DNA from: a virus
Lineage: Duplodnaviria > Heunggongvirae > Uroviricota > Caudoviricetes
DNA length: 64,000 bases
Reading direction: 5' to 3' (one strand)
IMG/VR virus record: IMGVR_UViG_3300028888_000086
Shown here one piece after another: positions 3,026 through 51,679 of this stretch. The first letter of the stretch is position 1. The number at the start of each line of letters is the position of its first letter. The notes under the pieces are model-generated. The model did not search any database. It saw nothing but the letters and a program-made list of their open reading frames with translations, and was not told the origin of the DNA. The translations under genes and the position numbers were made by a program.

Positions 3026-4885
3026 TTATTTTTTCGATTTTCCTGCTCTAAATTTATTCTTCATTTTTTCTGTATCTTCTCTCAAACTACTACCACCAAC
3101 TCCATAACCTTCTTCATTAACAACCATAAGACCTAATCCTAATAAGTTGTTTAAGAATTTTTGGTTATCCTCTGTCGTAACTGCTTCTCTTGCTTTTTCT
3201 ATAAACGGTCTTGCATTTCTAGATAACAGAGCAGATAAATCCATCTCACTGATCTTTTGTCCTGTTACTCTATATCTACCTTGACCCATTATAGGTTCAT
3301 CTTTCTTTGGATTAATGTCATGGAAAGCATCGTTACCAAATAAGGATGAAGTTACTTTACTTGAATAAGACGGTATATGATGTAGTTCAATAAGAGTCAT
3401 CCATCCACACTGTAATTTCTTATCAACTGGGACAAATTTACCTGTCATATTTTTAACTACCTTTTCATATTCTTCAGCAGTTAAATTGGCTTTTAATTCA
3501 TCCAGGTCAGTTACAGAAGACTCAGGCATTAAAATTTGACTCTGAGATTCTACATTTAATTCAGTCATCCACTCTTCTACTTTACTAGGTGTGAATTCTG
3601 AATAACAACCTACATTAAAATAGTATACTTCTTCAATAGGTTTAGTATCATGAAGCTTTAAGAATTCATCAACACTTAATTTATCATAACGCCCTTGATA
3701 ATATTTGTTTATAAGTGGCATTATTTTATTTCTTCCTGTTTTTGTTTTCTTATATTCTTCAACCATTTCATATAATCTGTACGCTATCAAACCTAATGAT
3801 TCCTCTAATAATACACCAGCAATTTTTCTATTAATGGTACTATAAGGATTCATAACAACCTCTACCCTATATTGTTTTCCAGTATTTTTATCAACCATTA
3901 TAGGCATCAATTCATCTGGCAAAACAGTAGAAATAACACCTTTACCACCATATCTATTAGTTACTTTAGAACCTACCATAAGAGTTGTTACTTTAATTAA
4001 TCTTATTCTTACAGTATAGACAACTTTATAATCATCTCTATCCATAACAATAGGATCTAAGTTATCAGCAGCCACATACTCGGGGAACTTATCAAAAATT
4101 ATAGATCTATCCTTATTTTTGTTATATTCCTCAATTACAGGCTCAGAAGTAGTAGCAAATTTATAATCTACCTTTACTGACTTCGGAATTTTAGGTTTTT
4201 CATTTTTCTGAATTAATACGTCAGATACATAAGCCTCGTCTATATTATTTGGAACCTTATATCTCTCTTCTGTAGTATATTGTGAGAGATCCTTTTTACC
4301 TTCTTCTCCAAATAATCCACCTAATTTTTCATTAAGGGCTTTATTAATTTCATCTAATCGTCTTGCTGCAAAATATGTAACTAATGAATCTCCAGAATGT
4401 ACCTTAGTTCCAACAGGTATAATCCACTTTAAAGCAGAAGAAGTTTTTATATTTAATCTTATATCAATTAAACTATAGTGAGACATCCTTCTAGCATAAG
4501 ATTCAGATACAACTAAAGCATCTTCATTAACAAGACCAAACATAGCGTGGAATAAAACCAATGTATTTAAACCAGACTTATATGTATCTTCATTTAATCC
4601 AACAGCTCCAGTAATGATATCTCCCTTTTTAACAGTTTGACCTACTTTTACTTTAGGCTCTGTGTAAATACTAATATCATTTAAAGATTGAATTGCTGTT
4701 CTTCTATTAATATCAACAGTTTCACCATTATTGAGTTTAACTGTTACTTTATCAGAATCTATACTTACAACTTTTCCTTCATCATACTCAAATTTTTCAT
4801 TAAGTATGTTATTTTTAAGCTCTTCATCGTGTCCTGTGTCAACTAAAGGACGCTGAGCATTAACTAAAGGGATACTTTGTTTCAT
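3026..4885 (-). CDS. rpoB: RNA polymerase beta subunit, C-terminal exon (exon 2)
   Basis: MKQSIPLVNAQRPLVDTG aligns to bacterial NMQRQAVPL..EAPLVGTG. It also has NRYGGKGVIS (RHGNKGV motif), MNPYSTINRKIAG, and GQGRYRVTGQKISEMDLSAL (GGQRFGEMEVWAL). Confidence 0.9.
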   Translation of the reverse strand: MKQSIPLVNAQRPLVDTGHDEELKNNILNEKFEYDEGKVVSIDSDKVTVKLNNGETVDINRRTAIQSLNDISIYTEPKVKVGQTVKKGDIITGAVGLNEDTYKSGLNTLVLFHAMFGLVNEDALVVSESYARRMSHYSLIDIRLNIKTSSALKWIIPVGTKVHSGDSLVTYFAARRLDEINKALNEKLGGLFGEEGKKDLSQYTTEERYKVPNNIDEAYVSDVLIQKNEKPKIPKSVKVDYKFATTSEPVIEEYNKNKDRSIIFDKFPEYVAADNLDPIVMDRDDYKVVYTVRIRLIKVTTLMVGSKVTNRYGGKGVISTVLPDELMPIMVDKNTGKQYRVEVVMNPYSTINRKIAGVLLEESLGLIAYRLYEMVEEYKKTKTGRNKIMPLINKYYQGRYDKLSVDEFLKLHDTKPIEEVYYFNVGCYSEFTPSKVEEWMTELNVESQSQILMPESSVTDLDELKANLTAEEYEKVVKNMTGKFVPVDKKLQCGWMTLIELHHIPSYSSKVTSSLFGNDAFHDINPKKDEPIMGQGRYRVTGQKISEMDLSALLSRNARPFIEKAREAVTTEDNQKFLNNLLGLGLMVVNEEGYGVGGSSLREDTEKMKNKFRAGKSKK

Positions 4886-4892
4886 TAATATT

Positions 4893-5260
4893 CCACTAGG
4901 TTCGTTATTCCTAGTGCGTTCTCAGATAATAATATCTTGAACTGCTTATACTTTCATATAAGATTAGACTATATCTTCATCCTTAATTACTTAAGGAGCT
5001 TAGCACTTCCACTAGACTTCTAGTGTACTCTCTTTCGAGATAGTCGTTGGGGTTAAATCTATTATACTGAGTTGGTCAATTCTCAGTTTAATTATATTTA
5101 AATTTAACCTGCTGATTGCCCATTGTTTCATATTAACCTTGTTCATCATAAGTGACCAAACCTACTATAGTTAATCTTTAGGGGATTCCAGCATTTCACT
5201 AAGTGTACATAACATATTACTATGTTACTGCTCAATTTTACACAAAGCATAGAGCATCCC
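4893..5260 (-). mobile_element. group I intron (family 1, no ORF) in rpoB-like gene; boundaries +/-10 nt
   Basis: It separates ...RRIPFINSTDSVRISMG (aligns to SLIPFLEHDDANRALMG) from MKQSIPLV. Minus-strand R element CCCCAACGACUAUCUC at ~5036-5053 and S element GGAUGAAGAUAUAGUCUAAUC at ~4957-4978 are in the right order and spacing. The terminal G precedes exon 2. Confidence 0.7.
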
Positions 5261-6567
5261 ATTGAAATACGAACAGAGTCAGTAGAGTTAATAAATGGAA
5301 TACGTCTGGTTGTTGAAGAAAGTCGATAATCAGGGTGTAAGTCTATTAAATCTATTTCTTCTACATTAACCATTTTTCTTTTCATTCTATATTTTACCTC
5401 TACTTGTCCACTTTCATTAGGCTTTAATATTTTCTTATCATAATCAACAAATTCAGATGCACATACTTTAGAATTCAAATAATCAATATAAGGAATAGTT
5501 ATCTTATTAAATTCTTTATCATATACATCAAACATTACACCATCATCAGTAATATGTGTAGATACTGTTAATGAGTTTTGTTTATTTGTATTATTATTAA
5601 TAGGAGTATCAGCTAAGTCAATAAGATCCGTAAAAGTTGTATTAAAAGCCGTAGTTTCAGGTATTTGAATTTTACTACCTAAACTATCCAAATTTATAGC
5701 ATTGATTCCAGGAGGTACTTGTAAATTACTATCTCCTTTTGATTCACTAGTTCCTTTAAAAAATCTAAAAGCTAAAGTTGTAATAGCTGTAACTTCTTCT
5801 TGAATCTTATTATACTTAGTAAAATAACTAGTAATTCTTCTTCTTGCTGATATATAATTACTTCCATTACTAGATCTAAATAAGAAATTCATAAAACTAG
5901 TATATACACTATCTATCTTCTTATCAACTATCAAGTCCTTTAGTCTATCATCCCCGAAAGCTAAACACTCATCAATAAGCTTTGTAGTAATATATTCTGG
6001 CTTATAATCTAAATCTAACTTAATCTGAAATTTCTTTATTTGTATATCAGTAAGTTTTAGTTGTTCTTTTTTATCACCAGTTAGTTTATCAATGTCTTCA
6101 TACTTAATTTCTATAGCTCTTTCTGAAACACTAGGATTTAATTCATTCTGCCTTTTGATTTTTAATACACCTTTTTTGATATCATATTTTCTATTATAGT
6201 CAAAGTTTATATATTGATCTCCTACATCAGACATACGAATCCTACAGTCAAAATCTCCGTCTAATTTATTTGTTGCAATTCTATAAGCTCCTTCGATAAT
6301 AAAAGCTCCATCAATCTCTTTAGGTATTTCAAAAGTTGCATATTTTATCTCAGGGTTATCATTTAATCTATACGAAATTTCTATTAGGTGAGATGCTGTT
6401 AAACTATTTTCTATATAATAAGCAGCTGGTCTTGGTGGTTGTTCTTTAATAGTATAATCTAAATCTACTATACTATATTTCGTATTAAATGAATCCACCT
6501 TATTAAAAAACCTAGTTACTATAGTTTTAATACCATCTCTTTTTAATAATTCATTGAAATTACTCAT
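5146..6567 (-). CDS. rpoB: RNA polymerase beta subunit, N-terminal exon (true exon end ~5257-5261; ORF tail reads into the intron)
   Basis: IDGAFIIEGAYRIA (GxFIINGxERV), LQVPPGINAINLDSLG (ETPEGPNIGLI), RRIPFINSTDSVRISMG. Confidence 0.85.
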   Translation of the reverse strand: MSNFNELLKRDGIKTIVTRFFNKVDSFNTKYSIVDLDYTIKEQPPRPAAYYIENSLTASHLIEISYRLNDNPEIKYATFEIPKEIDGAFIIEGAYRIATNKLDGDFDCRIRMSDVGDQYINFDYNRKYDIKKGVLKIKRQNELNPSVSERAIEIKYEDIDKLTGDKKEQLKLTDIQIKKFQIKLDLDYKPEYITTKLIDECLAFGDDRLKDLIVDKKIDSVYTSFMNFLFRSSNGSNYISARRRITSYFTKYNKIQEEVTAITTLAFRFFKGTSESKGDSNLQVPPGINAINLDSLGSKIQIPETTAFNTTFTDLIDLADTPINNNTNKQNSLTVSTHITDDGVMFDVYDKEFNKITIPYIDYLNSKVCASEFVDYDKKILKPNESGQVEVKYRMKRKMVNVEEIDLIDLHPDYRLSSTTRRIPFINSTDSVRISMGCSMLCVKLSSNIVICYVHLVKCWNPLKINYSRFGHL

Positions 6568-7147: not shown

Positions 7148-9244
7148 TTAACCTAATTTGTCGTTTACTAACAAACCTAAAATAACTTCTGACATTACGT
7201 CTCCTTGTAATGAAACCTCTCCTTTTAATGCTTTACTAATTGACTTAGAAGCAAAACCATAAGAAAGAGTTGTATAGAATGAGGGCTTATTTAATACTGC
7301 TGATTGAGTTCCTTGATACTCTATTTCCTCTATTTTTGAAGTTTTAGGATTATAAACAACTCTAGTTAATCCAGCAAATAATAACTCAATAAGCTCTTCT
7401 TGCATTGAGTGTAAATCAGTAATGCCAGTTTTTTGGAATCCATCGTCAGTAACTTCATAAAATTGTTTTCTAAAAATGGTATAAACACTATTAATATCCT
7501 TAACTTTATTAAATCTAGCAGCTATATTATCCATTCTAACAACACCATTACATATTCTATCAAATTTCTTTACTTTAGCACCATCTGGGAAATAATATAT
7601 ACATTTAGGATTATATAAATACTCTTCATTATCTATATAAACATGAATATTACCATTTTTATCCTCATCATATTTTATTATTCCATCATTAATAGCATAA
7701 CAGTCTGATACTAAAACATTTTCTTTCTCAAAATATCTTTGTCCATTACTTCCTCTAGCTCTAAGAAGATTAATTAGGCAGTTTAATTTATAGATAGGAG
7801 ATGTTGTATTATAGGCATAACAAACCTCTTCTCCAGCCTTAAACGTACTTTTACCAACAGTCACTAAATTATCTGGACGTGGATATTTTAATTCTGCTCC
7901 ACGAACTTTAAGGTAAATCCACTTACCCTCTTCTCTAAATGTACAATCTTTAGGGGCTATTAAACAACTAGTTAAATCCAGCTTCCTTTCGTGGCCGCCA
8001 TGTTTTAAGCCAAGAGCTGTTTGAGTTGTACTTTCCATAAGAGAAGTACCAAATGAGAGACCTATAGCAGCACCATCAGTAAAATCAAATTTATTTTTAC
8101 CTAATAAGTCTGGAGTTACTACATTTAAATCTCCTTTATTTTTAGTAACTATAGATCTAACTAGCACTAAATCATCTTCAGAAGGTCTAGCGATCGAGGT
8201 AGTTGGAAATACTTTACCATCTACTGTTGTTCTTCCTAATGCTTTATATCTTGGGATTAATAAACCCTGATTATCTAAATCTTCACCATCTCTATATATA
8301 TAGGAATTTAAACAATAGGAAATTTGACGGTTTAACCATCCGCTCGATGGCACACCGCTAACTTTAATAGATTGTAGTGATCTGTTTTCAATACTATGGT
8401 AGATCATATCTTTTTCATTTAATCCAGTTAATAAAGATCCCCTTGTAATAACAGGTTTTTCATCTATACCAGATATAATGAATTGAGGCATGTTTAGAGC
8501 TGAAATACTAGAAATCTTAACTCTTCCTGCTCTATTTAATTCATCTTTTAAATCGTCTGAAAATTTACCCTCAACTTCTTTTTCATAATCAGCATATTTT
8601 TTAGTTAACATAGCTAATTTTTGTTTGTCAGTAAGTTCTTCAGAGTCAGCTATTCTACAAATTTCTTTATAAGTTTCTGTATCCGTGTCTGCGAATAATG
8701 TTTTGAATGAAAATGTTACAACGCCAGCTTGAGTTACGGCTCTTAATGCCAACTTTTGTAATTCACTTCTTTTTTCTACTCCCTGTTCATCTCTATTTAA
8801 GTAAGAAGATAATTTTACAGCAGCTTTAGCATCCATTCTAGTATATGGATCTTTTAATATATTTAATTTATCTATATCAGCATCCAATATCTTAGAAATC
8901 CTTATTTTACCATAGCATGTTGTTTTACTTTTATAATCTTCACTTCCTATCTTTCCAGTAAAAACAATGGGGGTCCCGTATTTTATCTTTTTTTCAACTT
9001 CAACATCCTTTAGTAAATCCTCGTAGCTTGTATAAAAATATTTTGGATTATCTAAGTCATCGGGATTTTCTAAAACAAACTCGGTTAAAACAGCCAAACC
9101 ATTTAAAGTTTCGTGATTAAATGGAAATATTGGCATGTTATTTTTCTTATAAACATTTACATATCTTGGGGACATTTTATTGTAGGTATCTTCTGCTACA
9201 CTTTCATCAACAAGTTGAATCGAAATTTGATCCCCGTCAAAATC
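7148..9244 (-). CDS. rpoC: RNA polymerase beta' subunit exon 3 (starts at DFDGDQ; the track's TTG start at 9256 is intron sequence)
   Basis: DFDGDQISIQLV is the catalytic NADFDGDQMAVH motif; long C-terminal beta' body. Confidence 0.9.
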   Translation of the reverse strand, partial: DFDGDQISIQLVDESVAEDTYNKMSPRYVNVYKKNNMPIFPFNHETLNGLAVLTEFVLENPDDLDNPKYFYTSYEDLLKDVEVEKKIKYGTPIVFTGKIGSEDYKSKTTCYGKIRISKILDADIDKLNILKDPYTRMDAKAAVKLSSYLNRDEQGVEKRSELQKLALRAVTQAGVVTFSFKTLFADTDTETYKEICRIADSEELTDKQKLAMLTKKYADYEKEVEGKFSDDLKDELNRAGRVKISSISALNMPQFIISGIDEKPVITRGSLLTGLNEKDMIYHSIENRSLQSIKVSGVPSSGWLNRQISYCLNSYIYRDGEDLDNQGLLIPRYKALGRTTVDGKVFPTTSIARPSEDDLVLVRSIVTKNKGDLNVVTPDLLGKNKFDFTDGAAIGLSFGTSLMESTTQTALGLKHGGHERKLDLTSCLIAPKDCTFREEGKWIYLKVRGAELKYPRPDNLVTVGKSTFKAGEEVCYAYNTTSPIYKLNCLINLLRARGSNGQRYFEKENVLVSDCYAINDGIIKYDEDKNGNIHVYIDNEEYLYNPKCIYYFPDGAKVKKFDRICNGVVRMDNIAARFNKVKDINSVYTIFRKQFYEVTDDGFQKTGITDLHSMQEELIELLFAGLTRVVYNPKTSKIEEIEYQGTQSAVLNKPSFYTTLSYGFASKSISKALKGEVSLQGDVMSEVILGLLVNDKLG

Positions 9245-10736
9245 CTTGATATTCAAGCAGTTACGTTACTTCTGCCTCGTTCTCTTATGAACTGCTATAT
9301 GTCTCCATATAGAATAGACTATATCTTCATTATTAAATTTCTTAATAATGTTCCGCTTTTCCACTTACGATTTTAGTGTACTCCTGTAAAAGGATAGTCG
9401 TTGAGGAACAATAAACTTATTAGTCAGATAAGTTTTTTATTTCTTTAAATAATTCATCTAGATCTTCATATACTTTATAAGGATACTTGAAATCACTGTC
9501 TGACTTAGTTTTTATAATATTTGAGTAATAGAATACTCGTAAACCATGTTCTAAACAAAGATTTCGTTTATTATCATCCATTTTAACTCTTTCTTCAAAA
9601 GTATATTTTTTATCAAAAAATTCAGTTGGTTTAAAATGTTGTAATCCTTGACACTCTATAACTGCATTAAAGTCGGGTAAGTAAAAATCTACGTGCTGTT
9701 TTCTTTTATACTTTAACCAATCCCAGGTATATTGTTTTATTATATTAATATTATTATCTTTACAATATAATTCAATATCAACTTCTAAAATAAATCTATC
9801 TCCACAACTAGGACATCCACAATTACTTAAATGTATAGATGGTTGCTGCCAAAACGGTCCATGAGAATTACATATTATCTTAACTGGTGTAGTACAATTT
9901 ACGTACTCAACTTCATCATATCCATAAGTATCTTTATGTATTAATTTTGCGCGACGTATAAATTCTTCAGTATTAATATTAACTCCACCATTACACTCTG
10001 AACACCCATGTCCATATAAATGATCATGTGGTCTTTGAGTAAATTCTTTTTTACACCTATTACAAATCAATTTAACTGGTGTATTGATATTTACATAATT
10101 TACTTCACTGTAATCATATTTATCTTCGCCATGTACTTTTTTAGCTGCTTCTATAAAACTTTCTGTTGTGTATTTTTTATATGGACTTGGATTACATTCT
10201 TTACATCCACATCCCTGTAAAATATCAACCGGCTTAATTTCAAAATACCCATGTATATCACAATTTAGTATAACAGGCGTACTACTATTAATATAATTAA
10301 CTTTATTATATCCGTATCTATCTCCATGAATCTCTCTAGCCTTTTCTATAAACTGTTCCTGTGTATATTTTACTCCACCTTTACAGTTAGGACATCCTTG
10401 TCCACAGAGATGATTGTGTGCAGTCTGAATAAATTCATTTCTGCACTTATTACAAATTATAATAACTTTATCTTTACTTGATGTATAATTTACTTTGCTA
10501 TAATCATATTTATTTTCACCATGTACTTTTTTAGATCTTTCTATAAATTCTTCTGTTGTATATTTTTTCATTATAATTTTAGTTTATATAATTTATTTAT
10601 ATTGTTCCTGCTGATTTTCTCTATTTTATGAATTTTTAGGGTAGGTGACTAAATCCTACATTAACCTCCTATCATAAACCTAGCGAGAGTTTCCAGCATT
10701 TAACGGAATTTTAAAACACCAATTTTAAAATATTTT
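9245..10736 (-). mobile_element. group I intron B of rpoC (family 1), ~1.49 kb, carrying a homing-endonuclease ORF in a peripheral loop just upstream of P7
   Basis: R UUCCUCAACGACUAUCC (~9393-9409) and S GAAGAUAUAGUCUAUUC (~9311-9330) lie downstream of the ORF stop. The intron ends ...AUCAAG before GAU UUU GAC. The 5' exon ends in U (GCU). Confidence 0.65.
9420..10571 (-). CDS. intron-encoded homing endonuclease-like protein: 4 tandem Zn-ribbon repeats plus C-terminal Vsr/PD-(D/E)xK-like nuclease domain
   Basis: The repeat YT.E.FIE...K.HG..YDYS.VNY....P..I.C..HG.F.Q.P..HL.G.GCP.C occurs 4 times. The C-terminus has HVDFYLPDFNAVIECQGLQHF (DFYLP..N.AIE..G.QH). Confidence 0.75.
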   Translation of the reverse strand: MKKYTTEEFIERSKKVHGENKYDYSKVNYTSSKDKVIIICNKCRNEFIQTAHNHLCGQGCPNCKGGVKYTQEQFIEKAREIHGDRYGYNKVNYINSSTPVILNCDIHGYFEIKPVDILQGCGCKECNPSPYKKYTTESFIEAAKKVHGEDKYDYSEVNYVNINTPVKLICNRCKKEFTQRPHDHLYGHGCSECNGGVNINTEEFIRRAKLIHKDTYGYDEVEYVNCTTPVKIICNSHGPFWQQPSIHLSNCGCPSCGDRFILEVDIELYCKDNNINIIKQYTWDWLKYKRKQHVDFYLPDFNAVIECQGLQHFKPTEFFDKKYTFEERVKMDDNKRNLCLEHGLRVFYYSNIIKTKSDSDFKYPYKVYEDLDELFKEIKNLSD

Positions 10737-10814
10737 AGCGTTTAATGGACTACATATGGAGATTGGGAATCTAAGTACATAATCACCATCTCCAGGTTCA
10801 TTTAACCTAACTTT
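10737..10814 (-). CDS. rpoC: rpoC mini-exon 2 (78 nt), encoding KVRLNEPGDGDYVLRFPISICSPLNA
   Basis: It encodes exactly the ~26 aa missing between ...RPPTLH (exon 1) and DFDGD (exon 3). It aligns to bacterial [29 protein letters not shown]. It is preceded by G (10815) and ends in U. Confidence 0.7.
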
Positions 10815-11120
10815 CATACAAAACATTGAATATTCCGAAAAATACTTATATTTTCATATAAGACTAGACTATATCATCATCTATATTTCAAGATGGACTG
10901 CGCTTCAAAAATAGGAATTTCACCTATTTCTTACTCCATATAGGATAGTCGTTACACCTTTTTTGATTTATAATTTCAAAACTTGGCTCGGGATTGCCAT
11001 ATTATATTTCTATAACTTAGGTTTCCCCGATAGCAGAGATTTTATTTTCTCCACACCTAGCATTTACTAGTTCACAGTCTTTGCATTATAAGATCGCTCT
11101 TATAAGTCACAAATTTCTTT
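10815..11120 (-). mobile_element. group I intron A of rpoC (family 1, no ORF, ~306 nt)
   Basis: R GGUGUAACGACUAUCC (~10943-10958) and S GAUGAUGAUAUAGUCUAG (~10867-10884) are present. The 5' exon ends CAU (U). The intron ends UGUAUG. Confidence 0.7.
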
Positions 11121-12281
11121 ATGAAGTGTAGGAGGCCTATTAATAATTACTAGTTGTTTTTCTGCAAATTCCTTAAATAATTTTTGAGTTTCAGGATTAA
11201 ATGCTTCTTCTCTAGTAGCTTTCATAGCCTCTTTGTATGTAAAGTTAAGCTCTTTCTGTAGATGTTCAATAAATTTTTCTCTAAGTAATTCATAAGCAAT
11301 AGATACAGGAATACCAATTTCATCAATCTTCAAATCTGTTGCTGGAACAATTGGACATCTTGCAGAGTTTTTTGTTCTTACTCCAAATAATTCACGGGCT
11401 AAATTTTCTTTGGAGGTATTTAATAATTCAGTAGCTTCTTTTTTACCTGTATTCAAAAAAGCTCTAAGTAATGCAGTATATCTAACTTTTTCGCCAGGAG
11501 TTTTAAAGCGGCCAATTACTTCTTCATAATTCAGGTCATTACTTTTTTTATCCTGTACACAACAAAGTCTAATAATAATACTGTACCAAACTGACAATTT
11601 ACTAGACCCTTGAGTTTTCTTACCATTTTTATATTCAAAGGTAACGGGTCTCATCATTGCAGGTAATACTAAATAATATCGATTTATAAGTTTTCTGAAT
11701 TCGTTTGCTCTTTCTGGGAAGTGTTTTTCTATAATAGCTAACAGACCTTCATAAGAACATTTAGATTCATCTGTTATAAATTCAGATATTTTTAGTTCTT
11801 TCTTTGTGGGACTATAAGTAAATTGGCAAGTATCAAAAACCTTTATAGTTAATTTCTTTCCACCACGACCAGCATATCCTAAGTTTTTGAAATCATTACC
11901 TTGGAAATCTAGTTTGATAGTACTTTCAGAAAATATATCATCAAATAATTCTTTAAATATATCAAATCTCAAGTCATTTAAGTAATAAAAAGGTAATTCT
12001 ATTCTTGCAAATCTTCTCATACCTTCCTCTCTTGTAAAAACTCTAGCTCCACAAAAAGGGCAAGGTTCATGAGAGGCTCTTTTAATTTTACCACAAATAC
12101 AACGATCTTCATAGATTGACCCGAAAGCATCAACATCATAAACTCCTCCAGGTATGGGTTCAGGATAGTTGAATTTCAGGTTAAAGTCTCTATGATCAAA
12201 TAAAACTCTATCTCGACCATCACTTCTTGTATAGTCTAATATAGCTTCATCTGTTAATAATTCTAGTGATACTTTTGACAT
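11121..12281 (-). CDS. rpoC: RNA polymerase beta' subunit exon 1 (through ...INRPPTLH)
   Basis: N-terminal Zn finger CICGKIKRASHEPCPFCG, RFARIELPFYY (RMGHIEL), INRPPTLHK (LNRAPTLHR). The annotated tail EICDL* is intron read-through. Confidence 0.9.
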
Positions 12282-12297
12282 AATTTACTTTTTTTAA

Positions 12298-13383
12298 TCA
12301 TTCTGTATCTTTCCAAATAATTTTACTAGCTAATTCTGAGTCTATAGGATTTGCTTTAGACCACTCTTTCAGCATTTGTTTAACATCGGCTATAGCATCA
12401 GACCTAGTTTTATCTTTTAATTTTTCATATATACCAGGTTCAACAGCTACTTCAATTAAATCAGAAATAACATCTTGAGTTATAGCTTTAGAAGTATTCG
12501 TAAACTTGGCACGATACTCACGATAAATAACTACATCATCATAAGTTAAATTAAGGTCAGCAAATTCAGAAGAGGTTCTAATTTCAGCTGGTTCTTTATT
12601 AAACCAAGATAACTGTAATTTTCTAACACGGGCAGCAACTTGAGGTCTTCCAGCATCTTCATATCTCTGAGCTAATTCTTCTACTATATCATATTTAACA
12701 GACATAATTTTATTTAAAGCTCTATTAATTTGATTAGCATAAACCTCAGGCATTGTTGGACAGTCTATAATTAAATCATATAAACCGGATGAGAATAAAT
12801 AAATAATCAGAGCGGGTAATTGTCTCTGTTTTCTCTTTCTAGATATTGTAGAATCCTTTGATAAATCTCGGGAAGCCAAATAATCAACAAACCTAGCCAT
12901 ATATTCTCTAGCATCATCAGTAAATTTCTTATTAAATGATCCAGATTCATCTCCGAGTAAATTCTCATCCACATCCTCTCCTCTTAAAGGTGTATCAGGA
13001 GCATAAACAGAATTAACCATACGAGCATGACCTTGTCTTTGTAATAGATCTTTAACAATAAAATTAGCTGTATTAGTACTAGAATGTTTAGGATTAGCTA
13101 AAACAATAGAAGTTAAAACATCCTCTAAAGCTGTATCTGGTGATTTCTTTCCTGCTGTAAGAATATCATCATAAGCCGTACATAACCAAATTTCATCTTG
13201 AGTCATTTTACCAGCATATTGACTAGCATCTACATGTTCATTTTTAGATTCACTTTCTTCCTCTGATTCATTAGAGTCTCCTTCAGTCTCATCACCAACA
13301 TCATCGTCTGGCATTGGGAAAAAATAACTATCCTCATTTACATCAGACTCATCATCATTAAAATAATATTGATTATCTTCCAT
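12298..13383 (-). CDS. acidic hypothetical protein, first gene of the rpoC-rpoB operon (possible RNAP-associated factor)
   Basis: 361 aa with a D/E-rich N-terminus. GC is clearly higher than in flanking DNA. It is preceded by a minus-oriented promoter motif at ~13471-13495. Confidence 0.6.
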   Translation of the reverse strand: MEDNQYYFNDDESDVNEDSYFFPMPDDDVGDETEGDSNESEEESESKNEHVDASQYAGKMTQDEIWLCTAYDDILTAGKKSPDTALEDVLTSIVLANPKHSSTNTANFIVKDLLQRQGHARMVNSVYAPDTPLRGEDVDENLLGDESGSFNKKFTDDAREYMARFVDYLASRDLSKDSTISRKRKQRQLPALIIYLFSSGLYDLIIDCPTMPEVYANQINRALNKIMSVKYDIVEELAQRYEDAGRPQVAARVRKLQLSWFNKEPAEIRTSSEFADLNLTYDDVVIYREYRAKFTNTSKAITQDVISDLIEVAVEPGIYEKLKDKTRSDAIADVKQMLKEWSKANPIDSELASKIIWKDTE

Positions 13384-13566: not shown

Positions 13567-13654
13567 GGAGAGGTGCCGAAGTTGGTCATAACGGCCTAGA
13601 CTTGAAATCTTGTGTGTCTTTATAGACCCGTGGGTTCGAATCCCACCCTCTCCG
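13567..13654 (+). tRNA. tRNA-Ser(UGA), class II with long variable arm
   Basis: Acceptor GGAGAGG/CCTCTCC, D-arm GCCG...CGGC, anticodon loop CTTGAAA, T-arm GTGGGTTCGAATCCCAC. Confidence 0.8.
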
Positions 13655-18045: not shown

Positions 18046-18354
18046 ATGATTAAATCTGATAATTACAAATTAAAATGGATTGATGAAGGAGGTATATTTT
18101 TCCCAGTTAATGGAAATACTATATTACATTCATCATTAGGTCCTGGTGTCTGGAAAGTTGTACCTAGTCCTCGTATGAATGATGGAAGATTAGGACTAAC
18201 TAAAGTATGTGATAAATTTGAATTCGAATACAAAATTTATGACATAGGAAATAAAAGCTTCAGAGATAAAGTTATTAATGTCTGGAATTCTGATCTGTTT
18301 ATAGAAGATGGAAGAAATTTAGGCATAATAATGAATGGAACAAAAGGAACGGGT
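18046..18354 (+). CDS. AAA+ ATPase exon 1 (ends ...NGTKGTG, first half of Walker A)
   Basis: The ORF ends exactly at GTKGTG-stop and the exon ends in U (GGU). Confidence 0.7.
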
Positions 18355-18616
18355 TAAATAAATAGCCCTTCTTCTAAGGAATTAGAAGAATTTTTAAGGA
18401 ACGAATTCGGTGAAGGCTGTGATGCTAATACCGAGCTAACAGAAATAATTACGTAAGGTATTTCTGTAGTGTAGAGCATAGTAGTTGAATAAATATAATA
18501 CTACCAAGAGCGCTCCTTACCCCAACTGAAATAAGTGGGTAAAAATATATGCCGAGCTTATAAGAAGAAGAATTATAAGAGTCTAGGGATAAAAAGCTCT
18601 AGAGATAACAAAACTG
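18355..18616 (+). mobile_element. group I intron (family 2) splitting the P-loop codons of the AAA+ ATPase gene
   Basis: Joining the exons gives GTKGTG|KTVSAKLLCNELNMPVLIVDSDF, i.e. GxxGxGKT. The intron contains AAUACCGAGCUAA and CCGAGCUUAUAAG, shared with the trnL intron, and ends ...AACUG. Confidence 0.65.
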
Positions 18617-19549
18617 AAAACCGTATCAGCTAAACTTCTCTGTAATGAACTTAATATGCCTGTATTAATTGTTGATAGTGATTTTGAAGGTAGAATCTTA
18701 GAATTTATACAAAATTTAGATTATGAATGTGTAGTTCTTATTGATGAAGCCGAAAAAACATTTAAAGACGAAAGAGATAACAGTGAAGTTTTATTGAAGC
18801 TTATTGACGGAATATATAATAGATCCAGAAAATTATATATTCTCACTACTAATAAATTAACTGTAAATGAAAATTTATTAGGAAGACCAGGTAGAATCAG
18901 ATATATACAAGAATTCAATAATCTTGATCCTAAATTGATATCACTGTATTTAGATGACAATTTAAAGGATAAAGAAAAGAAACAATACGTAACTGAAATT
19001 GTAGATCTTTTAGAAATCTCAACTATCGACATTCTCAAAAATGTTGTAGATGAGGTTAATATGTTTGGTGAAATTCCTGAAGATTCGCCAATGAATATTC
19101 CAAGAGGTAAGTACGTATTTGATATTCTTAAATTGTGGGGTTGTACCGAAGATGATATTCCAGATGTTAAAAAGTTTCTGGATAAACATAAGACTTCTGG
19201 AAAATCGTTATATGAATGGTTATATAATAAAGCAAATGATGAAGATCTTCCAGAAGAATATAAAGATACAGAAGATAACTACTACAATTATGAACTTCTA
19301 AGAAATGAATTTGGATATACCAATAGTTGTACATATTCTACAATAGATAAACTTTCTACAAAGTATAGTACAATGTGGAAAGACTGTGATACCTCTATAG
19401 GTAGAGTATTAACAGAACCAGATGCATTCCATAAAGAAGGTGGAGATTATAATTTTATGCTAATTGAAGGGAGATATGATAAGGAAGTTTATCTTTGCGT
19501 ATTACTAAAACAAAGAAAATCTCCAACATTATATCATGGAGTATATTAA
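18617..19549 (+). CDS. AAA+ ATPase exon 2 (Walker B VVLIDEAE, sensor-1 TTN, Arg finger RPGRIR)
   Basis: Classic AAA second region of homology LLGRPGRIRY. The frame is open upstream of the annotated Met back to 18617. Confidence 0.75.
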   Translation, partial: KTVSAKLLCNELNMPVLIVDSDFEGRILEFIQNLDYECVVLIDEAEKTFKDERDNSEVLLKLIDGIYNRSRKLYILTTNKLTVNENLLGRPGRIRYIQEFNNLDPKLISLYLDDNLKDKEKKQYVTEIVDLLEISTIDILKNVVDEVNMFGEIPEDSPMNIPRGKYVFDILKLWGCTEDDIPDVKKFLDKHKTSGKSLYEWLYNKANDEDLPEEYKDTEDNYYNYELLRNEFGYTNSCTYSTIDKLSTKYSTMWKDCDTSIGRVLTEPDAFHKEGGDYNFMLIEGRYDKEVYLCVLLKQRKSPTLYHGVY

Positions 19550-45650: not shown

Positions 45651-45894
45651 TGTTAGCCCCTCTATATAGTGATATATAGAGAAAATCCTGAATATGCTGG
45701 AAACTCCTAAAGCTTTATCTACCAAAGTGTGAAAATGATAAAGATATTACAATGGACAATCAGCAGGGATAACTCTGTAAAAAGAGAAGCCCTCAACGAC
45801 TACCAAGGGACATCTAAAATAAAATTAGATGAAGGTATAGTCTAAACCCAAAATAAAATATCTCGAAAGGGAGGGTATCAATTGTATCACACAA
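45651..45894 (+). mobile_element. group I intron 1 of polA (family 1, no ORF; boundaries +/-30 nt)
   Basis: R CCUCAACGACUACC (~45790-45803) and S GAUGAAGGUAUAGUCUAAACCC (~45829-45850) on the plus strand. These are reverse complements of the rpoB/rpoC intron elements. Confidence 0.6.
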
Positions 45895-46529: not shown

Positions 46530-46815
46530 AAGTAAAATTGTGGCATACTGAAGTAATTTAGTATGAAAAAGATTGTGAACTCATATATGTGAGGTGTCTA
46601 AGAAAATAAAAAATCTTAGGCTAACGGTAAAAGCTAAGTTAGAAATAATATGCTAATACCGTGCCAAGTCAGAAATGAAAGGTGTAGAGACTATCCTTTA
46701 TGGAGTAGGTTTATAGTGAAATTCTATATTCCGAAGTGCAATCCATCTTGCAATATAGATGATGATATAGTCCAGCTCTAATGGAAACATTAGGAGAAAG
46801 CGGATTCTAATACTT
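46530..46815 (+). mobile_element. group I intron 2 of polA (family 1), inserted inside motif C between His and Asp
   Basis: The 5' exon ends CAU. R GGUGUAGAGACUAUCC (~46678-46693) and S GAUGAUGAUAUAGUCCAGC (~46759-46777) are nearly identical to rpoC intron A. The 3' end is approximate. Confidence 0.6.
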
Positions 46816-47186
46816 GTGATTTTCCAGCAGATAAATTATGGGATATCAGAAAATTTTACGATCATAACTTTACAGATTTTTGCTATGAAATGACAGGAAT
46901 TCAGTTATTGTTTGATATCTTAATTGGAGCGTCATATCAAGATGCATGTGAAGCTAAATCAATAGATGATAATACTGTAGAATTAACGGGTAACGCACGA
47001 TCCCATTTAATGATTATACAAAAACTAAATGAATGTCCTGGTCTAAAATATACTATAGACATGAATATAGATGATATAGTACCAGATTTTGAAACTAATT
47101 GTACAAAAAGATTTATAAAAGAAGCAGGATGTTCGTTTGTTATGGATAATTCAAAATATTCAATCAAGTATACAAGATTGAGTTAA
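46816..47186 (+). CDS. polA: family A DNA polymerase exon 3 (C-terminal tail; contains annotated ORF 46890-47186)
   Basis: The open frame extends upstream of the Met to ~46795 and would begin DDFPAD... after VH, giving VHDD. IIQKLNECPGLKYTIDMNI resembles the Pol I C-terminal IHQLMENCTRLDVPLLVEV. Confidence 0.5.
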
Positions 47187-47227
47187 AAATAAATAGAGGA
47201 AGGAAATTAATCCAACCTCTATCTTTT

Positions 47228-48850
47228 TTATTTGGTTTTATATGTATTAATCTCTTTTATCAGACCCTCTTTATTAGTTATTATTGGCGAAAAATAATTT
47301 GATATGCTATTATTTATAAGTACTTTCTCTTCTTTTCCAGCACCAGATAAATTGGGATCATAATAATAAAGAATTTTTATATTGTGTTGATTACATAAAT
47401 TATACTTTGTTAAATCTCTTTTATACCCTTCATTAAATGCTAGTAAACCTCCAAAATAATCTACTGGAATAAAATGTTGATCTCCATGAGCTTCTATAGC
47501 TATGTTAAAGTCTTCTAAATAAAAATCTAGTTTTAAATTTTTATTATATTTTAGCCACGTAAATGTTTTCTGAAAGTGATATTTTATTTTTAGTTCGTCT
47601 AATATCTCTCTAACTGAGTTTTCTAGCATTGAAATTATTTCATCTACATATACTAATTGTTCAGGAAGTGTTAATGATTTTCGATAAAGAGAATAGTATC
47701 TCTTTTGAAATTCCGATGGATTTTTTATATTATTTGTATTTATAAACTCTTGAAATTCTTGTACAGTATTTATATTATCAATTAATCCATTTGGTAAAAA
47801 TTTTTGTATTCTATTTGGATAGATAACTTTTGAAGTTAGTTTAAGATGTGTTAGCCTACTATAGATATCATTAAATCTTTTTCTAAAATCAGAAGGAGAT
47901 TGTATATTTTCTTTATTTATCAATTCTTGGAAGTCTGTTTCAGAATTGTACTTTTTTAATTCTGAATTAGATTTTGGTCTTAAAGGAAACTCTAATTTTG
48001 AATCCCACTTATTTCTTAGTATTTTAGCATACATAGACATATTAGACCTTCTTATTTCATCTAAATATACTATTTTATTTACTATTATATAATTTTGTAT
48101 ATAATCAAAAGTATATAAATCTAATTCCGAGTTTTGTAATTTTAATTCTGTATATCCAACATCTTCAGATTTTATGCCAAGCTTCCTCATACGTTTATCA
48201 ACTTTAGGGAACCTATTTAACATATCAGCTACATTCTTAATATTATTCTCTTCTATGAATTTCTTGAAGTCTTCAATTGTATTTAATTTCGAAGTATCTA
48301 ACCATCCAGGAAATGTTAATAGTCTATTTCCCTTCTTAAGATATCCAAAGTCCAGTGCCCATTTATACTCAGTTTTATAATTTTCTCGAAAGTCCTTTGG
48401 GCTAGATATATTATTATCGTTAATAAACTTCTGAAATTCTTCTATAGATCTTAATTTATTTTCCCTTTCGTATTTTAATGGATTTTTATATTTTATCTCT
48501 TTAGCTAGATGTTTTCCAACTAATTTTTTATATGTTGAGGGAAATCTGGAATTAAAGTCTGAATAATTCTCTATATTGTTCTCGTCAACAAATTTTTGAA
48601 AGTCTTCTAAATTATTCAGATTTTTATTCGTTTTAAAATCTCTAGTCTTTTCAGTATACACTACATCATCATTGAACTTCAGATATTTAAGTCTACTATG
48701 AACCTTAAGATATCTTTTCTTTAAATCAGAGTTACTTTTTATATTGTTATTCGCAATAAATCTCTGAAAATGATCTAATTCTGTGAAATCTTTTGCATTT
48801 ATTTCATCATTAGATACTCCAATTTTGTCAAAACTTTTTATATTATTCAT
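47228..48850 (-). CDS. homing-endonuclease-like protein: 6 N-terminal ~40-aa repeats plus C-terminal Vsr/PD-(D/E)xK-like nuclease (paralog of the rpoC intron ORF nuclease domain)
   Basis: Repeat (L/I)E(D/E)FQKFI.ENNI....DF..R(F/Y) occurs 6 times. The C-terminus has LKLDFYLEDFNIAIEAHGDQHF. Confidence 0.7.
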   Translation of the reverse strand: MNNIKSFDKIGVSNDEINAKDFTELDHFQRFIANNNIKSNSDLKKRYLKVHSRLKYLKFNDDVVYTEKTRDFKTNKNLNNLEDFQKFVDENNIENYSDFNSRFPSTYKKLVGKHLAKEIKYKNPLKYERENKLRSIEEFQKFINDNNISSPKDFRENYKTEYKWALDFGYLKKGNRLLTFPGWLDTSKLNTIEDFKKFIEENNIKNVADMLNRFPKVDKRMRKLGIKSEDVGYTELKLQNSELDLYTFDYIQNYIIVNKIVYLDEIRRSNMSMYAKILRNKWDSKLEFPLRPKSNSELKKYNSETDFQELINKENIQSPSDFRKRFNDIYSRLTHLKLTSKVIYPNRIQKFLPNGLIDNINTVQEFQEFINTNNIKNPSEFQKRYYSLYRKSLTLPEQLVYVDEIISMLENSVREILDELKIKYHFQKTFTWLKYNKNLKLDFYLEDFNIAIEAHGDQHFIPVDYFGGLLAFNEGYKRDLTKYNLCNQHNIKILYYYDPNLSGAGKEEKVLINNSISNYFSPIITNKEGLIKEINTYKTK

Positions 48851-49178
48851 GAGTTTTAATGTTTTTAATTTTAATCCCAGAACAATAACTGGATCAAGTA
48901 AGTTAATTTATTGTAATTGTGATTCCATAATGTTTATAGTGAAGGGCTTTCTCAGTTAGCTAATCTAATACTCACCCTTCAAACATCATGAATAATTTGA
49001 AACTTGAGAGAACGAACAAAAGGAGTACGCAAAAATACACACTCTTCTCATTGTCTCCTCTCACTTATAAGATTCAAACCCCGTCATAAGCGCATTTTTA
49101 TCATTTCAGGCATTATAAAACTTAGAATACGCTTATAGACTTTTTATTTCAAGCGATATTTAGTTTTTAATATTTGAA

Positions 49179-50885: not shown

Positions 50886-50944
50886 GAGAGCTGAAATATG
50901 TTCTCTTTTTCTTTTTCTTTTTATTTTTCCTTCTAATATTCCTT

Positions 50945-50962
50945 GAAAGCCTTATATATGTA
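50945..50962 (+). promoter_or_regulatory. promoter motif AAAGCCTTATATATGTA plus TSS hairpin AAACAGG...CTTGTTT plus downstream module TTTATTTTCAAAATATTAACAAT
   Basis: The same composite occurs at 52002-52078, 22745-22833(-), 41130-41252(-), 39180-39252(-). Confidence 0.55.
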
Positions 50963-51042
50963 AACAGGTAAATTAAATACTTGTTTATTCTTTTTTATTT
51001 TCAAAATATTAACAATTAAAAACCTCGCAATGTATAGGTTAA

Positions 51043-51381
51043 TTGTATATTACTATGAGATTTATGTATTTCGTAGAAGGTGGATTTGATTGTCCTAGTA
51101 TTTACAAATCACTCAAAGATTTATCAACCTGGATTGAACGTGTTTGTGATCATGAGAAAACAAACTTTACTGCAATGCTTGATATAGATGATTATGAATG
51201 TGGGATTTATCTTGTGACACATATTGACTTCAGTGTCAAGAGAAACATAAGGTGTTTGAAAAATCACTTTTACAAGCCGGGACTATATCAACAAGTCGAA
51301 AGTGTTCTTTTAAGGTTTGGTGATGGTGGTGATACGTATAAGATAACCAGGGCAGTCTTATCTGAAATAAACAAGGGATGA
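51043..51381 (+). CDS. hypothetical protein
   Basis: 112 aa; terminator hairpin GGGATGAAACACTCCC at ~51376-51392. Confidence 0.55.
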   Translation: MYITMRFMYFVEGGFDCPSIYKSLKDLSTWIERVCDHEKTNFTAMLDIDDYECGIYLVTHIDFSVKRNIRCLKNHFYKPGLYQQVESVLLRFGDGGDTYKITRAVLSEINKG

Positions 51382-51416
51382 AACACTCCCTTTTATTTTT
51401 CCGTCTATAAAACGTT

Positions 51417-51600: not shown

Positions 51601-51679
51601 GTTATTTTAATTCTTATATTTCGACCGTTTTTTATTCTTCAAAGCCTTATATATGTATTAACAATTTAAATTATTAACT

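What the first reader, a model, noticed from the sequence alone, without database searches (positions are those of the whole stretch)
9420..10571. Intron-encoded endonuclease with four Zn-ribbon repeats plus a Vsr-like nuclease, and a free-standing paralog with a different repeat array at 47228-48850
Two proteins share a C-terminal PD-(D/E)xK-type domain (DFYLPDFNAVIECQGLQHF and DFYLEDFNIAIEAHGDQHF) but carry different N-terminal repeat arrays (4 x a ~60-aa CxxC...HLxGxGCPxC module, versus 6 x a ~40-aa (I/L)E(D/E)FQKFIxENNI module). One sits in the P6-like loop of rpoC intron B. The other lies on the opposite strand directly after polA exon 3. This looks like modular DNA-recognition repeats fused to a common cleavage domain.
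Basis: partly seen in the sequence, partly recalled or inferred. Interest (0 to 1): 0.6.

Follow-up and report, generated by a model that had tools for sequence, protein, structure and literature searches.

The report
Two modular Vsr-type phage homing endonucleases
Two selfish "homing" nuclease genes in an uncultured giant phage share one DNA-cutting domain but carry different repeat arrays; the zinc-finger type was described in 2025, whereas the helical repeat of the second matched no library I searched.

Summary
ORF A (9420-10571, minus strand, 383 aa) has four ~65-aa zinc modules of the CapR/DUF4379/DUF723 type followed by a Vsr-like nuclease domain. It lies in the P6 loop of a group I intron (10736-9245) that splits the RNA polymerase beta' gene just before the DFDGD catalytic motif. 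ORF B (47228-48850, minus strand, 540 aa) has seven, not six, three-helix repeats with a ~56-aa period, plus the same nuclease domain (46% identity over 70 aa). It is free-standing and convergent with the last polA exon.

Related phages show that both elements are mobile. The A architecture was already described in NAR 2025 (PMC12350094), in the same kind of gene, so A is a new member of a known but biochemically untested kind.

The B repeat matches nothing in Pfam, PHROGs, NCBIfam or PDB. It occurs in 884 protein clusters at 2-21 copies per protein, mostly with this nuclease, sometimes with GIY-YIG, and sometimes mixed with the zinc modules. No cleavage or DNA binding was tested; these functions are inferred.

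The parts
9420..10571 (-). ORF A, 383 aa: intron-encoded homing endonuclease candidate (4 zinc modules + Vsr-like nuclease)
   Evidence: ORF list. Pfam PF14311. PHROG 559/9084. More than 7000 homologues carrying PF14311+PF05265. AF2 model with pLDDT 87.7.
10374..10571 (-). Zinc module 1 (residues 1-66), C4 type: C40, C43, C60, C63
   Evidence: Module alignment. CxxC positions. AF2 predicts a helix plus beta-hairpin.
10179..10373 (-). Zinc module 2 (residues 67-131), C-H-C-C type: C104, H107, C123, C126
9984..10178 (-). Zinc module 3 (residues 132-196), C4 type: C170, C173, C190, C193
   Evidence: It is 62% identical to module 1, and the 390-nt DNA repeat covers both.
9792..9983 (-). Zinc module 4 (residues 197-260), C-H-C-C type: C234, H237, C253, C256
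9423..9791 (-). Vsr-like (EDxHD-type) nuclease domain of ORF A (residues 261-383). Conserved residues: E263, D295, E306, Q308, H312, D332, K335
   Evidence: Invariant columns. Profile against PDB: AbaSI E=1.6e-4, I-Bth0305I E=8e-3. Foldseek: 1vsr and 1cw0 at probability 1.0.
9245..10736 (-). rpoC (beta') intron B, a group I intron of 1492 nt carrying ORF A in its P6 loop
   Evidence: Boundaries taken from the uninterrupted beta' of L001. The 5' exon ends in U and the intron ends in G. P1 covaries between the window and L005. The 3' core matches Rfam Intron_gpI at 39.3 bits, E=3.8e-8, below the gathering score.
10601..10608 (-). 5' arm of the P6-like stem (GGAACAAT) that closes the ORF-bearing loop
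   Evidence: Pairs with 9405-9412. Two compensatory changes in L006 (GGAATAGT/ACTATTC).
9405..9412 (-). 3' arm of the P6-like stem (ATTGTTCC), followed directly by the CAACGACTA core element
   Evidence: The ORF-less polA intron 1 has the homologous arrangement (CAGCAGGG...CCCTCAACGACTA).
10737..10835 (-). beta' mini-exon of 33 codons (EYSMFCMKVRLNEPGDGDYVLRFPISICSPLNA), lying between introns A and B
   Evidence: This stretch is contiguous in L001, L005 and L006.
10836..11120 (-). rpoC intron A, an ORF-less group I intron of 285 nt
   Evidence: Rfam Intron_gpI 69.4 bits (gathering score 50), E=7.5e-18. Absent from L001, L005 and L006.
11121..12281 (-). beta' exon 1, ending ...NRPPTLH
   Evidence: Pfam RNA_pol_Rpb1_2. 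Alignment to L001.
7148..9244 (-). beta' exon 3, starting DFDGDQISIQ (the catalytic Mg-binding motif). The exon 2/3 junction is the presumed homing site of ORF A.
47228..48850 (-). ORF B, 540 aa: free-standing homing endonuclease candidate (7 helical repeats + Vsr-like nuclease)
   Evidence: ORF list. AF2 model with pLDDT 85.3. Homologues.
47648..48796 (-). Array of seven three-helix repeats. Residues 19-65, 75-121, 130-175, 186-233, 242-288 (degenerate), 298-344 and 357-401
   Evidence: Motif scan. HMM domains with E from 1e-14 to 1e-22. AF2 predicts three helices per repeat.
47231..47644 (-). Vsr-like nuclease domain of ORF B (residues 403-540). Conserved residues: E410, D442, E453, H455, H459, D479, K482
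46890..47186 (+). 3' part of the last polA exon. Its stop codon is 41 nt from the stop of ORF B (convergent genes). The exact 5' end of the exon was not determined.
   Evidence: polA introns by Rfam at 45637-45865 and 46572-46794.

Best explanation
Both genes most likely encode homing endonucleases of the Vsr-like (EDxHD-type) lineage, and both have a bipartite build.

Build. An N-terminal tandem array of small, independently folding modules is inferred to lay the protein along a long, degenerate DNA target. ORF A uses four CapR/DUF4379-type zinc fingers. ORF B uses seven three-helix bundles. A C-terminal Mg-dependent Vsr-like domain is inferred to cut nearby. Its predicted active-site residues are E263/D295/E306/H312/D332 in A and E410/D442/E453/H459/D479 in B. 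By analogy with I-Bth0305I, it probably cuts as a dimer and makes a staggered double-strand break.

ORF A. It rides in the P6 loop of a self-splicing group I intron inserted between the codons for ...PLNA and DFDGD... of the phage RNA polymerase beta' gene. In a mixed infection it would cut an intron-less beta' allele at that junction. Repair from the intron-bearing genome would then copy the intron plus ORF A into the cut allele. Splicing keeps the host gene functional.

ORF B. It is a free-standing version of the same strategy and occupies the slot just downstream of polA. It would cut genomes that lack it, in or next to the polA 3' end, and be copied in by repair together with flanking markers.

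What is shown here: the domain architecture, the nuclease fold, conservation of the catalytic residues, the intron structure and insertion site, and presence/absence or replacement polymorphism in related phages.

What is inferred: DNA binding by the arrays, the cleavage chemistry and geometry, the actual target sequences, and homing itself.

For: Arrays. A matches PF14311 above its cut-off, with four conserved Cys/His ligands per module. CapR/DUF723/DUF4379 repeats are described as the DNA-binding arrays of phage homing endonuclease genes (HEGs) in PMC10055350. The same arrays fused to an EDxHD/Vsr-like domain are described in PMC12350094. In the metagenome-derived library, copy number of the B repeat varies from 2 to 21. 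Of the top 150 repeat proteins, 110 carry this nuclease and 2 carry GIY-YIG. P0267 and P0313 mix helical and zinc modules.

Mobility of A. L001 has an uninterrupted beta' at both intron sites. L005 and L006 have intron B plus an A homologue (83% and 75% identical) at the same site, but lack intron A. P1 and P6 covary.

Mobility of B. In L014 the flanks are 94% and 85% identical to the window, yet the slot holds a different B-family gene. That gene is 391 aa, has the order repeats-nuclease-repeats, and is ~26% identical to B. L012 and L015 carry two further B-family genes there, on the other strand. B homologues are free-standing genes in phage-like contigs of 180-370 kb.

Intron turnover. L002 is 81-96% identical to the window over the aligned blocks of this region and has two extra polA introns.
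Against: - No enzymatic, DNA-binding or homing data exist for these proteins. I also found none for any close relative of this outgroup.
- Sequence similarity to the one characterised family member, I-Bth0305I, is marginal (profile E=8e-3). The histidine lies 3 residues after the conserved glycine, as in DUF559, not 4 as in Vsr and I-Bth0305I.
- No genome with an empty slot downstream of polA was found, so B's target is unknown and its mobility is inferred only from cassette replacement.
- The B repeat has no detectable relative of known function, so its DNA binding rests on context alone.
- The 5' half of intron B was not matched by Rfam, and the 3' half scores below the gathering threshold.
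Confidence: 0.8

Rival explanations
1. One or both proteins are domesticated or regulatory derivatives of homing endonucleases. On this view the arrays bind phage or competitor DNA to repress or modulate it, as CapR does in the PLE satellite, and cleavage is lost or secondary.
For: CapR itself is a domesticated DNA-binding derivative with the same type of zinc module, as cited in PMC10055350. ORF B lies next to a window-specific AIPR (abortive infection) gene, at a boundary where homology to two relatives stops.
Against: All predicted catalytic residues are intact in A and B and invariant across their families. A sits in the classic intron position for a homing endonuclease. The polA slot shows HEG-like cassette turnover.
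Confidence: 0.07
2. The proteins act on RNA. ORF A would be a splicing helper (maturase) for intron B. ORF B would be a helical-repeat RNA-binding endoribonuclease, analogous to the FASTK/RAP-domain proteins of organelles.
Against: The matches cover essentially the nuclease domain, 138-157 aligned residues with high rmsd. The repeat here is a 56-aa three-helix unit, not a ~37-aa helical hairpin. The same repeats occur with GIY-YIG DNA nucleases and with CapR-type DNA-binding fingers. B is not associated with any intron. Cassette replacement at a fixed genomic slot is a DNA-level behaviour.
Confidence: 0.05
3. The proteins are weapons of inter-phage or phage-host conflict rather than homing elements. 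They would be restriction-like nucleases that cut competitor or modified DNA, as the Vsr-like domain of AbaSI/PvuRts1I does, without copying themselves.
For: The best PDB sequence match of the nuclease profile is AbaSI. Eight of 40 members hit PvuRts1I-like_N. Nuclease genes at boundaries of genetic exchange between phages are documented in PMC10055350. Homology to relatives breaks ~250 nt upstream of ORF B.
Against: There is no SRA-like or other modification-reading domain. A is inside a self-splicing intron at a conserved active-site codon junction, which is typical of homing. This rival overlaps with homing rather than excluding it, because cutting a competitor and gene conversion go together.
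Confidence: 0.06

Closest known systems
[quoted passage not shown]
   Same: ORF A has the same architecture: several ~60-aa CapR/DUF4379/DUF723-like zinc domains followed by a ~100-aa Vsr-like domain. It also has the same genomic setting, namely introns in multisubunit RNA polymerase beta' genes of jumbo phages. The family size is likewise in the thousands.
   Different: This phage has no match in the GenBank phage collection: DNA around rpoC and the beta' exon-3 protein both found nothing. Its best HEG relatives among deposited phages are below 42% identical. That paper reports no biochemistry. It does not, as far as I read it, describe the helical-repeat version (ORF B).
I-Bth0305I, prototype of the EDxHD homing endonuclease family (PMC3239194; PDB 3r3p)
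   Different: Its N-terminal modules are helix-turn-helix (NUMOD) repeats with no detectable relation to either array here (hhalign probability 1.6%). Sequence similarity of the nuclease domain is marginal (E=8e-3). The spacing from the conserved Gly to the His is 4 residues in I-Bth0305I and 3 here. Its ORF lies in the P1 loop (PMC2677866); here it lies in the P6 loop.
T5orf172/GIY-YIG-type phage HEGs with repeated CapR/DUF723/DUF4379 zinc fingers (PMC10055350)
   Same: Both have tandem, copy-number-variable zinc-finger DNA-binding arrays fused to a nuclease. Both show recombination or duplication between repeats; ORF A has a 390-nt two-module duplication. Both sit at boundaries of genetic exchange.
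   Different: The nuclease domain is T5orf172 in those proteins and Vsr-like here.
FASTK/RAP-domain and related organellar helical-repeat proteins
   Same: Both combine a helical repeat array with a Vsr-like PD-(D/E)xK domain. These proteins are among the best structural matches.
   Different: They are eukaryotic RNA-binding proteins with ~37-aa helical-hairpin repeats. There is no sequence relation. The structural match is essentially limited to the nuclease-like domain.

Membership tests
EDxHD / Vsr-like homing endonucleases | Vsr-like alpha/beta nuclease fold | tested here: met
EDxHD / Vsr-like homing endonucleases | Composite catalytic motif E...D...x...H...D (I-Bth0305I E170, D196, N208, H213, D222) | tested here: met
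   A has E263, D295, Q308, H312 and D332. B has E410, D442, H455, H459 and D479. These positions are invariant or nearly so across 40 and 22 homologues and align to 3r3p. The His lies one residue closer to the Gly than in I-Bth0305I and Vsr.
EDxHD / Vsr-like homing endonucleases | Significant sequence similarity to established members | tested here: inconclusive
   Profile against PDB: I-Bth0305I E=8e-3, AbaSI E=1.6e-4, DUF559 E=0.22. The single sequences find nothing. This fits the 'outgroup' status stated in PMC12350094.
EDxHD / Vsr-like homing endonucleases | Residence in a mobile context (intron, intein or free-standing) with presence/absence polymorphism | tested here: met
   A lies in a group I intron that is absent from L001 and present at the same site in L005 and L006. 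The B slot holds different family members between conserved flanks.
EDxHD / Vsr-like homing endonucleases | Site-specific DNA cleavage at or near the insertion site | not testable with these tools
   This requires purified protein and substrate DNA.
CapR/DUF4379/DUF723 zinc-finger DNA-binding modules (ORF A array) | Match to the family profile and four conserved Zn ligands per module | tested here: met
   PF14311 scores 38.1 bits against a cut-off of 24.5, in two stretches. Precomputed PF14311+PF05265 hits are on nearly all homologues. The ligand columns are invariant or nearly so.
CapR/DUF4379/DUF723 zinc-finger DNA-binding modules (ORF A array) | Zinc binding and DNA binding | not testable with these tools
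   Inferred from the literature on CapR, as cited in PMC10055350.
Group I intron (intron B, host of ORF A) | Covariance-model match to Intron_gpI | tested here: inconclusive
   Only the 3' core matches, at 39.3 bits (gathering score 50), E=3.8e-8. The 1152-nt ORF in P6 prevents a full-length match. The neighbouring ORF-less intron A scores 69.4 bits.
Group I intron (intron B, host of ORF A) | U at the end of the 5' exon paired to G in P1, a terminal G, and exon ligation that restores a conserved reading frame | tested here: met
   GCU|...G| boundaries. P1 is AACGCU/GGUGUU in the window and AGGAGCU/GGGUUCCU in L005. The P6 stem has two compensatory changes in L006. The joined exons read ...SPLNA-DFDGDQ..., as in the uninterrupted L001.
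NUMOD-type helix-turn-helix repeats of I-Bth0305I (considered for the ORF B array) | Profile similarity to the I-Bth0305I N-terminal repeats | tested here: not met
   hhalign probability 1.6%. There is also no relation to the zinc module of ORF A. Pfam, NCBIfam and PDB give no match, and no PHROG matched the B repeats except within one long phrog_559 alignment (B residues 60-496) that ends in the nuclease domain.

The most novel reading that the evidence does not exclude
The ~56-aa three-helix repeat of ORF B would be a previously undescribed nuclease-associated DNA-reading module. Each unit would contact a fixed step of DNA through its variable helix-2/helix-3 surface positions. Arrays of 2-21 units, freely combined with CapR-type zinc fingers and with Vsr-like or GIY-YIG nucleases, would then form a naturally re-programmable targeting system, closer in logic to TALE or zinc-finger arrays than to classical homing endonucleases.
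Probability: 0.12. Interest if true: 0.8.

Novelty: new variant of a known kind. Interest (0 to 1): 0.45.

Why it matters
ORF A adds a clean, well-delimited example to a very large family that was only recently recognised and has not been tested biochemically. That family is the CapR-like plus EDxHD/Vsr-like homing endonucleases. The example comes with a precise predicted target, the codons around the DFDGD catalytic motif of a phage RNA polymerase. It also comes with natural intron-plus and intron-minus alleles, which makes it a convenient candidate for a first biochemical characterisation.

ORF B shows that the same cleavage domain is also coupled to a second kind of tandem array, a helical one with no family annotation. 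This array is copy-number variable, is shared with GIY-YIG nucleases and can be mixed with zinc modules. If it binds DNA it is a new nuclease-associated modular domain. That would be of interest for understanding how homing endonucleases acquire new targets, and possibly as a building block for engineered nucleases.

The locus also illustrates how densely introns and endonuclease genes turn over in the core replication and transcription genes of an uncultured jumbo-phage lineage.

Tried and rejected
- Rfam on the whole window and on 8900-11400 found no introns. This was an effect of the speed filters. The same introns are found when short stretches are searched.
- Single-sequence searches of the PDB found nothing relevant for either protein. 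A profile was needed.
- DNA around rpoC (8500-12500) and the beta' exon-3 protein gave no match in the GenBank phage collection. The host phage lineage could therefore not be named.
- The search for related loci with polA pieces found no relatives in IMG/VR. An empty-site allele for ORF B was not obtained. The polA-exon-3 homologues that I could fetch all carry a B-family gene in the slot.
- The B repeat profile has no significant match in the PDB. It has no hhalign relation to the I-Bth0305I N-terminal repeats or to the zinc module of ORF A. NCBIfam gave no match.
- I considered whether the B repeat is a zinc-less derivative of the A module, because both start with T-x-E-(E/D)-F. I rejected this for lack of any profile signal.
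- I considered a TALE/PPR/HPR-like solenoid for B. The Foldseek full-length alignments to mitoribosomal repeat proteins have rmsd above 25 A and TM about 0.15. I therefore treat the resemblance as limited to the nuclease domain.
- The promoter/terminator scan around ORF B was uninformative.
- Window 18330-18680 and 50880-52430 were checked for further introns, after a DNA similarity and a core-motif match respectively. Neither gave an Rfam hit.
Full report
**1. What is in the sequence**

BLASTP between them aligns only the C-terminal regions: A280-349 with B427-496, 46% identity, E=5e-17. A six-frame HMM scan of the window finds this domain in these two ORFs only.

**2. ORF A array**

- Residues 1-260 form four ~65-aa modules, 40-62% identical to each other.
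- Modules 1 and 3 carry CxxC...CxxC. Modules 2 and 4 carry CxxH...CxxC, which is the consensus form in the family (KVxIICPxHGEFxQxPxxHLxGxGCPxC).
- Pfam DUF4379, described as a probable treble-clef zinc finger, is hit above its curated cut-off. Homologues carry precomputed PF14311+PF05265 (DUF723).
- The AF2 model has mean pLDDT 87.7. It shows four copies of helix + beta-hairpin + short helix, followed by an alpha/beta domain.
- At the DNA level a 390-nt, two-module unit is duplicated at 70-86% identity. Modules 1-2 and 3-4 therefore look like a tandem duplication.
- The family is very large. More than 7000 proteins pass E<=1e-3 among 8000 scored candidates, and 971 GenBank phage records have a tblastn match. 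These are annotated variously as hypothetical protein, endonuclease, homing endonuclease or HNH endonuclease.

**3. ORF B array**

- A repeat HMM and the AF2 model (mean pLDDT 85.3) add a seventh, degenerate copy at residues 242-288.
- Each unit has three helices of about 10, 7 and 9 residues plus a linker. The period is ~56 aa.
- The conserved positions are mostly hydrophobic and presumably core (F, F, I, I, F, F/Y, Y, L, Y), together with a conserved Q and N. Variability is concentrated before helix 2 and on helices 2 and 3.
- The repeat has no match in Pfam, NCBIfam or PDB. In PHROGs, B's hits rest on the nuclease domain, apart from one long phrog_559 alignment over B residues 60-496.
- hhalign finds no relation to the helix-turn-helix repeats of I-Bth0305I or to the zinc module of ORF A.
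- A profile search of 1.84 billion representative proteins found 884 clusters at E<=1e-3, with 2-21 matched stretches per protein.
- Of the best 150 hits, 110 carry the same Vsr-like domain, and in 100 of these it lies C-terminal to the repeats. Most of the remaining 40 look like fragments.
- Two hits, P0283 and P0311, carry a GIY-YIG catalytic domain instead.
- P0267 combines two helical repeats, two zinc modules and the nuclease. P0313 combines three helical repeats with one zinc module.
- The modules therefore behave as interchangeable parts.

**4. The shared nuclease domain**

- In an alignment of 40 diverse C-terminal domains, the columns E263, D295, E306, G309, H312, D332 and K335 (ORF A numbering) are invariant. 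The equivalents in the B family are E410, D442, E453, G456, H459, D479 and K482.
- A profile of this alignment hits three PDB entries. They are the N-terminal Vsr-like cleavage domain of AbaSI (E=1.6e-4), the catalytic domain of the homing endonuclease I-Bth0305I (3r3p, E=8e-3) and a DUF559 protein (E=0.22).
- Individual members hit Pfam PvuRts1I-like_N (8 of 40) and DUF559 (7 of 40).
- The aligned residues correspond to the I-Bth0305I active site E170/D196/N208/H213/D222 defined in PMC3239194.
- One difference: the His follows the conserved Gly by 3 residues, as in DUF559, not by 4.
The fold is there.

**5. Context of ORF A**

A related viral contig (L001, beta' 66% identical) encodes an uninterrupted stretch ...NRQPSLHEYSMFCLKVRLVDDEYALKFPISICTPLNADFDGDTISIQ.... 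Mapping the window onto it gives these parts:

- Exon 1, ending at 11121 (...PPTLH).
- Intron A, 11120-10836 (285 nt).
- A 33-codon mini-exon, 10835-10737.
- Intron B, 10736-9245 (1492 nt).
- Exon 3, starting at 9244 (DFDGDQ...).

Intron A is a group I intron by Rfam (69.4 bits, E=7.5e-18).

The evidence for intron B is as follows.

- Its 5' exon ends in U, and the intron ends in G.
- A P1 pairing exists: exon AACGCU with intron GGUGUU.
- Its 3' core matches Intron_gpI at 39.3 bits, E=3.8e-8, which is below the gathering score.
- ORF A is enclosed by the stem GGAACAAT/ATTGTTCC, directly upstream of the CAACGACUA core element.
- The ORF-less polA intron 1 has the same arrangement (CAGCAGGG-loop-CCCTCAACGACTA).

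Two metagenomic relatives (L005 and L006) carry ORF A homologues that are 83% and 75% identical. Both have intron B with the ORF at the same site and lack intron A. Their sequences show compensatory changes in P1 (L005: AGGAGCU/GGGUUCCU) and in P6 (L006: GGAATAGT/ACTATTC). The insertion site lies immediately before the catalytic DFDGD motif of beta'. This is an extremely conserved target, of the kind homing endonucleases typically exploit.

**6. Context of ORF B**

- polA is on the plus strand and is split by two ORF-less group I introns. Rfam places them at 45637-45865 (48 bits) and 46572-46794 (52.7 bits).
- ORF B converges on the last polA exon, and the two stop codons are 41 nt apart.
- A related phage contig (L002) aligns to the window at 96.5% identity across ORF B, polA exon 3 and polA intron 2, and at 81-94% across the rest of polA. 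It has the same ORF B (99% identical protein) but two additional polA introns. Its homology to the window stops at 49094, about 250 nt upstream of ORF B.
- In L014 the flanks are 94% (46707-47257) and 85% (48991-49094) identical to the window. Between them lies a different member of the B family: 391 aa, three repeats, then the nuclease, then two repeats, ~26% identical to B.
- L012 and L015 have two further B-family genes in the same slot, 433 and 537 aa, on the other strand.
- The slot is thus a hotspot that different members of this family have invaded or replaced. This resembles the replacement of free-standing endonuclease genes in T4-like phages, for example SegH and Hef replacing mobC and mobE. 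I know that case only from my own knowledge and from its citation in PMC3239194.
- More distant B homologues are free-standing genes in contigs of 180-370 kb.
- I found no genome with an empty slot, so the target of B is not known.

**7. How it most likely works**

Both proteins are best explained as bipartite homing endonucleases. A tandem array positions the protein on a long, degenerate DNA site. The Vsr-like domain then cuts nearby, and recombinational repair from the element-bearing genome copies the element in.

- For A, the group I intron removes the element from the beta' mRNA.
- Dimeric cleavage with a 2-nt 5' overhang is an analogy to I-Bth0305I (PMC3239194). It is not a result obtained here.

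I put the confidence at about 0.8. The rivals are domesticated regulators, RNA-directed proteins resembling RAP/FASTK, and restriction-like conflict nucleases. All three are listed with their evidence. None fits the intact active sites, the intron position and the cassette turnover as well as homing does.

**8. Comparison with what is known**

- The EDxHD/Vsr-like homing endonuclease family was predicted in 2009 (PMC2677866) and characterised through I-Bth0305I in 2011 (PMC3239194).
- Repeated CapR/DUF723/DUF4379 zinc fingers in phage endonuclease genes were described in 2023 (PMC10055350).
- The exact architecture of ORF A was described in 2025 (PMC12350094): three to five CapR-like domains plus a distant EDxHD/Vsr-like domain. 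[quoted passage not shown] - ORF A is therefore a new member of a known, untested kind.
- ORF B couples the same nuclease to a repeat that I could not find described or modelled anywhere I searched. I rate it a new variant of a known kind. The caveat is that absence from Pfam, PHROGs, NCBIfam, PDB and the searchable literature is not proof that it is undescribed.

**9. Verdict**

The finding is biologically ordinary in principle: selfish endonuclease genes in a phage rich in introns. It is well delimited, and it contains a possibly new DNA-recognition repeat. Interest 0.45.

Noticed in passing
window 10836-11120 (-) and 10737-10835 (-): The beta' gene carries a second, ORF-less group I intron only 99 nt upstream of intron B, which leaves a 33-codon mini-exon between them. 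This intron is absent from three relatives (L001, L005, L006), so it is polymorphic in this phage group.
   Followed up: yes
window 45637-45865 (+) and 46572-46794 (+); L002 4281-4562 and 5032-5315: polA is split by two ORF-less group I introns. The related contig L002 (81-96% identical over the aligned blocks) has two additional insertions in polA, at window positions ~45965 and ~46436/7. These resemble other introns of the window.
   Followed up: partly
window 4945-5114 (-): There is a group I intron-like element (Rfam 46.5 bits, E=5e-11, just below the gathering score) between two ORFs. The downstream ORF (3026-4885) hits RNA polymerase Rpb2 domain 6; the upstream ORF (5146-6567) has no Pfam hit. 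The beta-like subunit gene may also be interrupted.
   Followed up: partly
window 49095-50885 (+): A 568-aa AIPR (abortive infection) family gene lies just beyond ORF B. Homology of both L002 and L014 to the window stops at 49094, so this gene appears specific to the window. It lies at a recombination boundary next to the endonuclease gene.
   Followed up: partly
window 18407-18613: This stretch is 71% identical to an insertion in the polA gene of L002 (L002 4287-4484). It lies between ORFs 18046-18357 and 18656-19549, the latter AAA-like. Rfam finds no intron there.
   Followed up: partly
window 51289 (-): A GATATAGTCC motif, typical of the group I P7 core, lies in the region between the AIPR gene and a 1142-aa helicase-methyltransferase ORF. 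Rfam gave no hit in 50880-52430.
   Followed up: partly
L001 6900-7351: The beta' gene of the related contig L001 is uninterrupted at both window intron sites. It is broken at a different place, after ...QSIKQSGV, by ~450 nt. This may be another intron at a third site.
   Followed up: no
window 61775-62172 (-) and 13567-13654 (+): There is a cluster of four tRNA genes and one isolated tRNA gene. This fits a large phage genome.
   Followed up: no
window 7148-13383 and whole window: Neither the DNA around rpoC nor the beta' exon-3 protein has any match in 50,697 GenBank phage records. The closest relatives are metagenomic contigs of 183-219 kb. The window appears to come from an uncultured jumbo-phage lineage with a multisubunit RNA polymerase.
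   Followed up: partly
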